Source: Escherichia coli
GTDB lineage: Bacteria > Pseudomonadota > Gammaproteobacteria > Enterobacterales > Enterobacteriaceae
NCBI RefSeq assembly: GCF_003334315.1
Contig: NZ_QOWR01000002.1
Length of the DNA stretch: 64,000 nt
Reading direction: 5' to 3' (one strand)
This document shows positions 1 through 327 of this stretch, piece by piece. The number at the start of each line of letters is the position of its first letter. Within the stretch, counting starts at the first letter, position 1. The position numbers and the translations under genes are program-made. The notes under the pieces were generated by a model. The model worked only from the letters and a program-made list of their open reading frames with translations, had not been told where the DNA came from and did not search any database.

Positions 1-81
1 AAGTCGCTGTCGTTCTCAAAATCGGTGGAGCTGCATGACAAAGTCATCGGGCATTATCTGAACATAAAACACTATCAATAA
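1..81 (+). CDS. insB: IS1 transposase InsB, C-terminal fragment (5' partial, runs off window)
   Basis: Frame 1 translates [26 protein letters not shown] then TAA at 79-81, the known InsB C-terminus. Confidence 0.7.
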
Positions 82-96
82 GTTGGAGTCATTACC
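1..96 (+). mobile_element. IS1: IS1 right end (3' terminal ~96 bp including terminal inverted repeat); element continues beyond window start
   Basis: Bases 1-96 match the remembered 3' end of IS1 (…AAGTCGCTGTCGTTCTCAAAATCGGTGGAGCTGCATGACAAAGTCATCGGGCATTATCTGAACATAAAACACTATCAATAAGTTGGAGTCATTACC); terminal IR GGTAATGACTCCAACTTATTGAT lies at 74-96 on the minus strand; pitB reading frame breaks exactly at 96/97. Confidence 0.8.
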
Positions 97-327
97 GACA
101 ATGGCATAGGCAACGCTAAGTCCGCCCAATAACACGCCAAAAAAGTTAAAAAATGCCGCCATCACCACAGCAAGTTGTGGTTGCATGGCACGAGTATAAA
201 TAACGGTTGCCACCGCATTCGCCGTGTCATGAAAACCATTGATTGCTTCGTAGAACAACACAAATGCCAGAGCAAGCAATAACAAAAGCCCTGTGTATAT
301 ATCAAGGCCAACAAATAAATTTAGCAT
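97..327 (-). pseudogene. pitB: Low-affinity phosphate transporter PitB, N-terminal 77 codons only, interrupted by IS1
   Basis: Translation [48 protein letters not shown]…LSVAYAIV matches Pit family N-terminus; downstream of codon 77 the frame enters IS1 sequence and terminates. Confidence 0.75.

What the first reader, a model, noticed from the sequence alone, without database searches (positions are those of the whole stretch)
1..327. IS1 insertion truncating the phosphate transporter gene pitB
The pitB reading frame (minus strand) is a clean Pit-family N-terminus for 77 codons (…[10 protein letters not shown]) and then, at position 96/97, switches abruptly into sequence I recognise as the 3' end of IS1, including the InsB C-terminus …[15 protein letters not shown] on the plus strand and the terminal inverted repeat GGTAATGACTCCAACTTATTGAT. 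The window therefore starts inside an IS1 copy that has inactivated pitB. This is strain-specific, not a K-12 MG1655 reference feature as far as I recall, and means PitA would be the only Pit-type phosphate/metal-phosphate importer in this strain.
Basis: partly seen in the sequence, partly recalled or inferred. Interest (0 to 1): 0.6.

Follow-up and report, generated by a model that had tools for sequence, protein, structure and literature searches.

The report
IS1 element truncating pitB, with deletion
The window starts inside an ordinary IS1 insertion sequence that cuts off the spare phosphate transporter gene pitB after codon 77. In every close relative, the rest of pitB and tens of kilobases next to it have been deleted, so this is routine IS-driven genome erosion.

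Summary
Window 1-96 is the last 96 nt of IS1, covering the InsB C-terminus, its stop codon and the right inverted repeat (IRR). Window 97-327 on the minus strand is pitB codons 1-77, with an abrupt junction at 96/97.

The interpretation needs amending. The same junction occurs in 13 of 5,426 complete E. coli genomes. Only one of them, ST131 strain MNCRE44, has a simple insertion: a 9-bp target duplication GACAATGGC with the rest of pitB on the far side.

The 12 genomes whose flank is near-identical to the window have a full 768-bp IS1 but no duplication and no pitB 3' part. They show eight different left flanks, all genes of the pheV genomic island. A close relative with intact pitB has about 38 kb there: T2SS-beta, sslE, the glc operon, yghS/T and the pitB 3' part.

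The feature is therefore the right boundary of an IS1-associated deletion at the well-known pheV hotspot. RefSeq already annotates it as IS1 plus a partial phosphate transporter pseudogene.

One side observation may be worth keeping. The same 9-bp site was hit independently by three IS1 isoforms, and five other IS1 junctions lie within pitB nt 15-365, which suggests a local IS1 hotspot. Interest is low.

The parts
1..96 (+). Last 96 nt of an IS1 element (IS1 nt 673-768); the window begins inside the element
   Evidence: 100% identity to IS1 nt 673-768 of HS30-1. RefSeq annotates the same stretch in relatives as an IS1A/IS1B family transposase with programmed frameshift.
1..81 (+). C-terminal 26 codons and stop of insB / insAB' (transposase)
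   Evidence: Translation [26 protein letters not shown].
74..96 (+). IS1 right terminal inverted repeat (IRR); the element ends at base 96
   Evidence: Read directly from the sequence. Identical IS1 end in 11 relatives.
97..105 (.). GACAATGGC, the 9-bp IS1 target (pitB nt 223-231). It is duplicated on both sides of IS1 in MNCRE44. Only this right-hand copy is visible in the window, and only this copy is present in the close relatives.
97..327 (-). 5' fragment of pitB, codons 1-77 of 499 (pseudogene)
   Evidence: 100% identity to nt 1-231 of intact pitB. NCBIfam PitA/PitB model positions 1-77 of 498, 138.9 bits against a cutoff of 800. Annotated 'incomplete; missing C-terminus' in relatives.
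16..327 (-). Hybrid ORF of 103 aa: 77 aa of PitB plus 26 aa read from the IS1 antisense strand. Almost certainly non-functional.
328..618 (.). AT-rich gss-pitB intergenic region, where the pitB promoter is presumed to lie (not tested), intact here. Relatives carry extra IS1 copies after window positions about 367 (ET729) and about 470 (2018-11-3CC). In F467 the IS1 junction has moved to 312/313, inside the pitB fragment.
619..2481 (-). gss (glutathionylspermidine synthetase/amidase), intact. It lies upstream of pitB on the same strand and fixes the synteny.

Best explanation
Window 1-96 is the right end of a standard 768-bp IS1. IS1 carries insA/insB and makes its InsAB' transposase by a -1 frameshift. 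Its IRR is joined to nt 231 of pitB. The rest of pitB is most likely not on the other side of the element.

The most likely history has two steps. First, IS1 inserted at the 9-bp target GACAATGGC in pitB. Second, leftward events anchored on that IS1 removed the left copy of the target duplication, pitB nt 232-1500 and the adjacent DNA back into the pheV genomic island. Those events were either transposase-mediated adjacent deletions or homologous recombination with other same-orientation IS1 copies nearby.

In a relative with intact pitB, the lost interval is about 38 kb. It holds T2SS-beta (yghD, gspL-C), gspS, pppA, sslE, yghO, glcC, glcDEFGBA, lptF/G-like genes, yghS and yghT.

Shown directly: the identity of both halves of the junction, and the truncation of pitB. 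Shown in relatives: a complete IS1, no target duplication, variable left flanks, and what the ancestral interval contained. Inferred: that the window's own source strain has one of these deleted arrangements, and the order of events.

The consequence is loss of PitB, a PHO-repressed paralogue 81% identical to PitA. Very probably the strain has also lost glycolate utilisation and the SslE/T2SS-beta system. gss and everything to its right are untouched.
For: Junction identity.

Frequency: the exact junction (query window 72-180) occurs in the same orientation in 13 of 5,426 genomes.

Left flanks: the 12 genomes with a near-identical right flank (0-1 differences over 5 kb wherever the flank aligns without an extra IS1) have a complete IS1 and eight distinct left flanks. 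These are a pheV-adjacent integrase truncated by IS1 (HS30-1), a site 129 nt past that integrase (PI12), brxL' (ET729), DUF262' (2018-11-3CC and its duplicate), hypothetical gene + IS1 + integrase (TL20, CRECJHTL34), WYL' (JX21CE35, PSS-13, FACU 2024), an STY4851 fragment (cM2a), and an H-NS-like gene plus an IS1 remnant (L6-21). None ends in GACAATGGC.

Deletion rather than inversion: in HS30-1 and cM2a both outer flanks keep the usual order and orientation, speC-yqgA-pheV-int...IS1-pitB'-gss-yghU-hyb. The reciprocal pitB-3'/IRL junction exists only in MNCRE44.

Ancestral content: EH09-18-41 has an essentially identical right flank (100.0% in the table), an intact pitB, about 38 kb between the island end and pitB, and three IS1 copies in that interval.

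Continuing erosion: F467 has the same WYL'-IRL junction and an identical IS1, but its right junction lies 216 bp further in, leaving 15 nt of pitB.

IS1-IS1 exchange: HS30-1, ET729 and FACU 2024 carry 5-8 substitutions within IS1 nt 262-444 and are annotated IS1A rather than IS1B, in an otherwise identical element.

Literature: IS adjacent deletions and IS-IS recombination lack target duplications and grow stepwise (PMC11708052). IS1 hops locally, and local hopping explains the lengths of IS-caused deletions (PMC5009759). The pheV hotspot is bounded by speC and pitB (PMC2617782).
Against: The window starts inside IS1, so its own left flank is unseen. No genome in the collection is an exact source: the best matches score about 46,150-46,156 bits, where I estimate about 46,168 for a perfect 25-kb match. 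With eight different left flanks among relatives, the arrangement in the source strain cannot be named. The lineage's ancestor may well have had a simple insertion, so a strain still in that state could exist unsampled. The order of events (insertion then deletion, or deletion formed in one step) is inferred, not shown.
Confidence: 0.85

Rival explanations
1. Simple IS1 insertion. The complete IS1 sits inside an otherwise intact pitB, flanked by a 9-bp duplication, and nothing else is lost.
For: This exact arrangement exists in MNCRE44: same site, same orientation, duplication GACAATGGC, and pitB nt 223-1500 on the left. It is also the presumed ancestral state of the window lineage.
Against: MNCRE44 has a diverged flank (98.2% identity over the 109-nt junction query) and a different IS1 isoform (53 of 768 differences), so it is an independent event. 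All 12 genomes with the window's flank lack the pitB 3' part next to IS1. The reciprocal junction occurs in no other complete genome.
Confidence: 0.08
2. One-step deletions, repeated independently. IS1 copies already resident at different places in the pheV island or region each transposed intramolecularly into the same pitB hotspot. Each event deleted the interval in a single step, so there was never a simple insertion in this lineage.
For: The site is demonstrably a repeated target. Three IS1 isoforms in two orientations use the same 9 bp. IS1 hops locally, and the region already holds several IS1 copies. Other genomes have IS1 IRR-pitB junctions at nt 203, 219, 268 and 365 with different left flanks.
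Against: Eight independent hits of one nucleotide in the same orientation within one near-clonal background is far less parsimonious than one insertion followed by left-side changes. The junction IS1 is identical in 8 of 11 relatives. F467 shows that stepwise erosion from a resident IS1 does occur here.
Confidence: 0.1
3. Assembly artefact. The window or contig merely begins at a repeated IS1, and the join to pitB is a mis-assembly.
For: Contigs from short-read assemblies commonly break in IS copies, and the window does start inside one.
Against: The IS1-pitB junction itself lies inside the window. It is reproduced base for base in 12 independently assembled complete genomes.
Confidence: 0.01

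Closest known systems
IS1 (IS1A/IS1B isoforms; IS1 family insertion sequences of E. coli and Shigella)
   Same: The terminal 96 nt are identical to annotated IS1A/IS1B-type copies, with the same IRR and InsB C-terminus. Relatives have the full 768-bp element with the insAB' programmed frameshift. The 9-bp duplication seen in MNCRE44 matches the 8-9 bp described for IS1 (PMC12428005).
   Different: Nothing about the element itself differs. Only its last 96 nt are visible in the window.
IS-mediated adjacent deletions and IS-IS recombination deletions. IS1-promoted deletions are classical (recalled from memory). Recent analyses are PMC11708052 and PMC5009759.
   Same: An IS is retained at the deletion boundary and there is no target-site duplication. 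One junction is fixed while the other varies. The deletion enlarges stepwise (F467). Several same-family IS copies lie nearby.
   Different: This is observed in natural isolates rather than in the laboratory. The mechanism (transposase-mediated versus RecA-mediated) is not resolved here.
pheV tRNA integration and deletion hotspot of E. coli (Touchon et al. 2009, PMC2617782)
   Same: The rearranged interval lies between pheV and pitB, which that paper names together with speC as the K-12 genes flanking the hotspot. The left flanks are island genes: integrases, BREX, WYL and toxin-antitoxin genes.
   Different: Here the variable region has eaten into its own right boundary gene, pitB.
PitB, the second low-affinity metal-phosphate:H+ symporter of E. 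coli (references to Harris 2001 and Hoffer 2001 given in PMC6469041)
   Same: The first 77 residues and the upstream region are identical to intact pitB, and the gene lies downstream of gss.
   Different: Only 77 of 499 residues remain, so this is a pseudogene and not a functional family member.

Membership tests
IS1 insertion sequence | Terminal inverted repeat (IRR) at the element's end | tested here: met
   Window 74-96 is the IS1 IRR. The element ends at base 96, exactly as in 11 complete copies.
IS1 insertion sequence | 768-bp element with insA/insB and a -1 frameshift giving InsAB' | tested here: inconclusive
   Only the last 26 insB codons are in the window. NCBIfam gives no hit for so short a peptide. 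In all relatives with this junction, the element is a full 768 bp and annotated with a programmed frameshift.
IS1 insertion sequence | 8-9 bp target-site duplication flanking the element | not testable with these tools
   The left flank is outside the window. In the 12 near-identical relatives it is absent. In MNCRE44 it is present as GACAATGGC.
PitA/PitB inorganic phosphate transporter | Full-length match to the family model above the curated cutoff | tested here: not met
   The fragment scores 138.9 bits over model positions 1-77 of 498, against a cutoff of 800. Intact PitB from EH09-18-41 scores 935.2. The window holds a truncated pseudogene.
PitA/PitB inorganic phosphate transporter | pitB rather than pitA: position downstream of gss, beside yghU and the hyb operon | tested here: met
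   There is 100% nucleotide identity to annotated pitB nt 1-231.
IS-associated (adjacent or recombinational) deletion | IS retained at the boundary, no duplication, and the missing interval present in close relatives | tested here: inconclusive
   All three features are met in the 12 relatives. The window itself shows only the right boundary.

The most novel reading that the evidence does not exclude
pitB nt 223-231 (GACAATGGC), and more broadly pitB nt 15-365, may be a genuine IS1 target hotspot. Under this reading it acts as the recurrent right-hand stop of IS1-driven erosion of the pheV variable region. The cause could be local DNA structure next to the AT-rich pitB promoter region, or selection for loss of pitB and its neighbours.

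The evidence is three independent IS1 isoforms at the same 9 bp, in two orientations, across strains with diverged flanks. There are also junctions at pitB nt 15, 203, 219, 268 and 365, and two further IS1 insertions in the adjacent intergenic region.
Probability: 0.45. Interest if true: 0.3.

Novelty: already known. Interest (0 to 1): 0.15.

Why it matters
For this strain it means no PitB. PitB is a PHO-repressed backup for PitA and is reported as normally non-functional in wild-type K-12 (PMC6469041). The strain has very probably also lost the adjacent glycolate operon and the SslE/T2SS-beta colonisation system. That is a small example of IS1-expansion genome reduction in a commensal or livestock-associated E. 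coli lineage.

It tells us nothing new about IS1 or Pit biology. The only mildly useful point for population genomics is the repeated use of one 9-bp IS1 target, together with the clustering of junctions in the pitB 5' end.

Tried and rejected
1. I tried to find the window's exact source genome so I could read its left flank. Searches with window 1-25000 and 39001-64000 found no perfect match. The best genomes differ between the two ends of the window and have different left flanks, so the source arrangement cannot be named.

2. Inversion instead of deletion was rejected for HS30-1 and cM2a, because both outer flanks keep the usual order and orientation. It was rejected more generally because the reciprocal pitB-3'/IS1 junction is absent outside MNCRE44. 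JX21CE35 does have an additional IS1-IS1 inversion reaching yqiI. The window has no second IS1 and runs collinear with HS30-1 to ygiM.

3. An NCBIfam scan of the 26-aa InsB tail gave no hit because the peptide is too short. The DNA identity to IS1 is decisive instead.

4. A literature search for pitB plus IS1 found only an unrelated listing of K-12 IS5 neighbours. I found no prior description of the site as a hotspot in the held library.

5. I asked whether the 203 and 219 junction groups derive from the 231 group by further erosion. Their left flanks match none of the 231-group flanks, so this stays open. Only F467 is clearly derived.

6. I did not count genomes for each alternative junction, and I did not type the lineage by MLST, because no MLST genes lie in the window.

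Full report
**1.
- Window 1-96 is identical to the last 96 nt (673-768) of a complete 768-bp IS1.
- Frame 1 of 1-81 gives the InsB C-terminus ...[15 protein letters not shown].
- Window 74-96 is the IS1 right inverted repeat, and the element ends at base 96.
- From base 97 the minus strand is pitB. Window 97-327 is 100% identical to nt 1-231 of an intact annotated pitB and encodes 77 residues ending ...[10 protein letters not shown].
- The reading frame then continues for 26 IS1-derived codons, giving a 103-aa hybrid ORF at 16-327.
- The 77 residues align to positions 1-77 of the 498-position NCBIfam PitA/PitB model at 138.9 bits. Intact PitB scores 935.2 against a cutoff of 800.
- gss (619-2481, minus strand), yghU and the hyb operon follow in the usual order, so the gene is pitB and not pitA.

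**2. How common the junction is.** A query of 25 nt of IS1 plus 84 nt of pitB (window 72-180) can only be covered above 80% by a genome with this exact junction.
- Sixteen of 5,426 complete E. coli genomes qualify.
- Twelve match at 100% in the same orientation.
- One more, MNCRE44, matches at 98.2% in the same orientation.
- Three match at 96.3% with IS1 in the opposite orientation. One of these (NCCP12480) was fetched and confirmed.
- K-12 and thousands of other genomes match only the pitB part, so K-12 pitB is uninterrupted here.

**3. What lies on the other side of the IS1.**
The sequence runs ...CATATG GACAATGGC | IS1 | GACAATGGC ATAGG..., with pitB nt 223-1500 to the left.
- The 12 genomes whose right flank is essentially identical to the window: 0-1 differences over 5 kb in the nine whose flank aligns directly, with two others offset by an extra IS1 and one not fetched. 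The IS1 is complete, but the left flank is never pitB and never ends in GACAATGGC.

Eight different left flanks occur among those 12:

| Left flank | Genomes |
|---|---|
| pheV-adjacent integrase, truncated by IS1 | HS30-1 |
| 129 nt past the same integrase | PI12 |
| Truncated brxL | ET729 |
| Truncated DUF262 gene | 2018-11-3CC and its duplicate record |
| Hypothetical gene, a second IS1 and another integrase | TL20, CRECJHTL34 |
| Truncated WYL-domain gene | JX21CE35, PSS-13, FACU 2024 |
| STY4851-family fragment | cM2a |
| H-NS-like gene plus a 34-nt IS1 remnant | L6-21 |

The reciprocal junction (pitB nt 232 onward joined to IS1 IRL) is found only in MNCRE44.

In HS30-1 and cM2a the chromosome reads speC-yqgA-pheV-int-...-IS1-pitB'-gss-yghU-hyb. 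Both outer flanks keep their usual orientation. The missing interval has therefore been deleted, not inverted.

**4. What was lost.** EH09-18-41 has an essentially identical right flank (100.0% in the table) and an intact pitB. Between the distal end of its pheV island and pitB it carries about 38 kb:
- yghD and gspL-C (T2SS-beta), gspS, pppA and sslE
- yghO, glcC and glcDEFGBA
- an aminotransferase fragment, lptF/G-like genes and a ytfJ-like gene
- an LPS biosynthesis gene, yghS and yghT

Three IS1 copies already sit in that interval. Touchon et al. defined this interval as the pheV insertion/deletion hotspot and named speC and pitB as the flanking genes in K-12 (PMC2617782). The window's IS1 thus marks the right edge of that hotspot, which here has eroded into its own boundary gene.

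**5. Mechanism.** A fixed right junction with many left flanks is what a resident IS1 produces when its other end promotes adjacent deletions, or when it recombines with other direct IS1 copies. Both routes remove the target duplication (PMC11708052). IS1 hops locally, and local hopping accounts for the lengths of IS-caused deletions (PMC5009759). Two further results support this.
- F467 keeps the same WYL'-IRL left junction and an identical IS1 as JX21CE35 and PSS-13. Its right junction has moved 216 bp, to window position 312/313, leaving 15 nt of pitB. This is stepwise erosion caught in the act.
- The junction IS1 is identical in 8 of 11 relatives. HS30-1, ET729 and FACU 2024 carry 5-8 substitutions within nt 262-444 and are annotated IS1A rather than IS1B. 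FACU 2024 shares its left flank with two genomes that lack these substitutions. This suggests exchange between IS1 copies.

I favour one insertion followed by several left-side events. Repeated one-step intramolecular transpositions into the same site are possible but less parsimonious.

**6. Limits.**
- The window starts inside IS1, so its own left flank is unseen.
- No genome in the collection is an exact source.
- With eight left flanks among relatives I cannot say which one the source has. A simple insertion in an unsampled strain remains possible (I put this at about 8%).
- pitA is outside the window, so the statement that PitA is the only remaining Pit transporter is untested.

**7. Comparison with what is known.** The element is ordinary IS1: 768 bp, inverted repeats, insA/insB with a frameshift, and an 8-9 bp duplication (PMC12428005). 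PitB is 81% identical to PitA, repressed by the PHO regulon, and reported as normally non-functional in wild-type K-12 (PMC6469041). RefSeq already annotates this locus in the relatives as an IS1 transposase plus 'inorganic phosphate transporter, incomplete, missing C-terminus'. This is a known kind of event at a known hotspot.

**8. Side observation.** The same 9-bp target was used by three distinct IS1 isoforms that differ at 28-53 of 768 positions. Two are in one orientation and one is in the other. MNCRE44's flank is diverged from the window's. Orientation cannot flip by IS-IS recombination, and MNCRE44's flank differs from the window's within 50 nt of the junction, so these are independent insertions.

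Other genomes have IS1 IRR-pitB junctions at nt 203, 219, 268 and 365, each with its own left flank. ET729 and 2018-11-3CC have a second IS1 in the pitB-gss intergenic region. This clustering suggests a local IS1 hotspot. It is the only part of the locus that might repay a small follow-up.

Noticed in passing
window 97-105 (GACAATGGC); L002 4249-4257 and 5026-5034; L003 5024-5032: The same 9-bp pitB site is occupied by three different IS1 isoforms (28-53 differences per 768 nt). MNCRE44 has a same-orientation simple insertion with a duplication. The NCCP12480 group has the opposite orientation with a deletion reaching gspC/D. The third is the window lineage. These are independent hits of one target, so the site is a likely IS1 hotspot.
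   Followed up: partly
window about 97-327 (pitB nt 15-365 equivalents); loci L015-L018, L021: At least five further IS1 IRR-pitB junctions exist in other complete genomes, at pitB nt 15, 203, 219, 268 and 365. All have IS1 in the same orientation and have lost the pitB 3' part. Their left flanks differ (yghT', a DMT transporter gene, IS1 + integrase, yghO, WYL').
   Followed up: partly
window about 367 and about 470 (gss-pitB intergenic region); L005 5297-6064, L006 5400-6167: Two relatives carry an additional IS1 in the AT-rich intergenic region just upstream of the pitB fragment. The orientations are opposite: direct in ET729 and inverted in 2018-11-3CC.
   Followed up: no
L008 (JX21CE35) 1-4257: In JX21CE35 the DNA left of the island fragment is yqiK-yqiJ-glgS-yqiI' abutting an inverted IS1. 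This implies an IS1-IS1 inversion of roughly 55 kb spanning the region covered by the window. The window has no second IS1 and is collinear with HS30-1 through to ygiM.
   Followed up: partly
L001, L005, L010: IS1 nt 262-444: The IS1 at the pitB junction is identical in 8 of 11 relatives. In HS30-1, ET729 and FACU 2024 it carries 5-8 substitutions within nt 262-444 and is annotated IS1A rather than IS1B. FACU 2024 shares its left flank with two genomes that lack these substitutions. This suggests gene conversion or recombination among IS1 copies.
   Followed up: partly
window 10406-10693 (yghW) and about 35838-36171 (ygiZ): yghW is intact in the window but has an internal stop in HS30-1 (difference at window 10584). 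The window and HS30-1 also differ by an indel near window 36097, inside the ygiZ region, which is annotated as frameshifted in HS30-1. The state of ygiZ in the window was not resolved.
   Followed up: no
This fits an IS1-expansion, genome-reduction lineage. TL20 and CRECJHTL34 share the junction but have only 5-7 IS1 matches.
   Followed up: no
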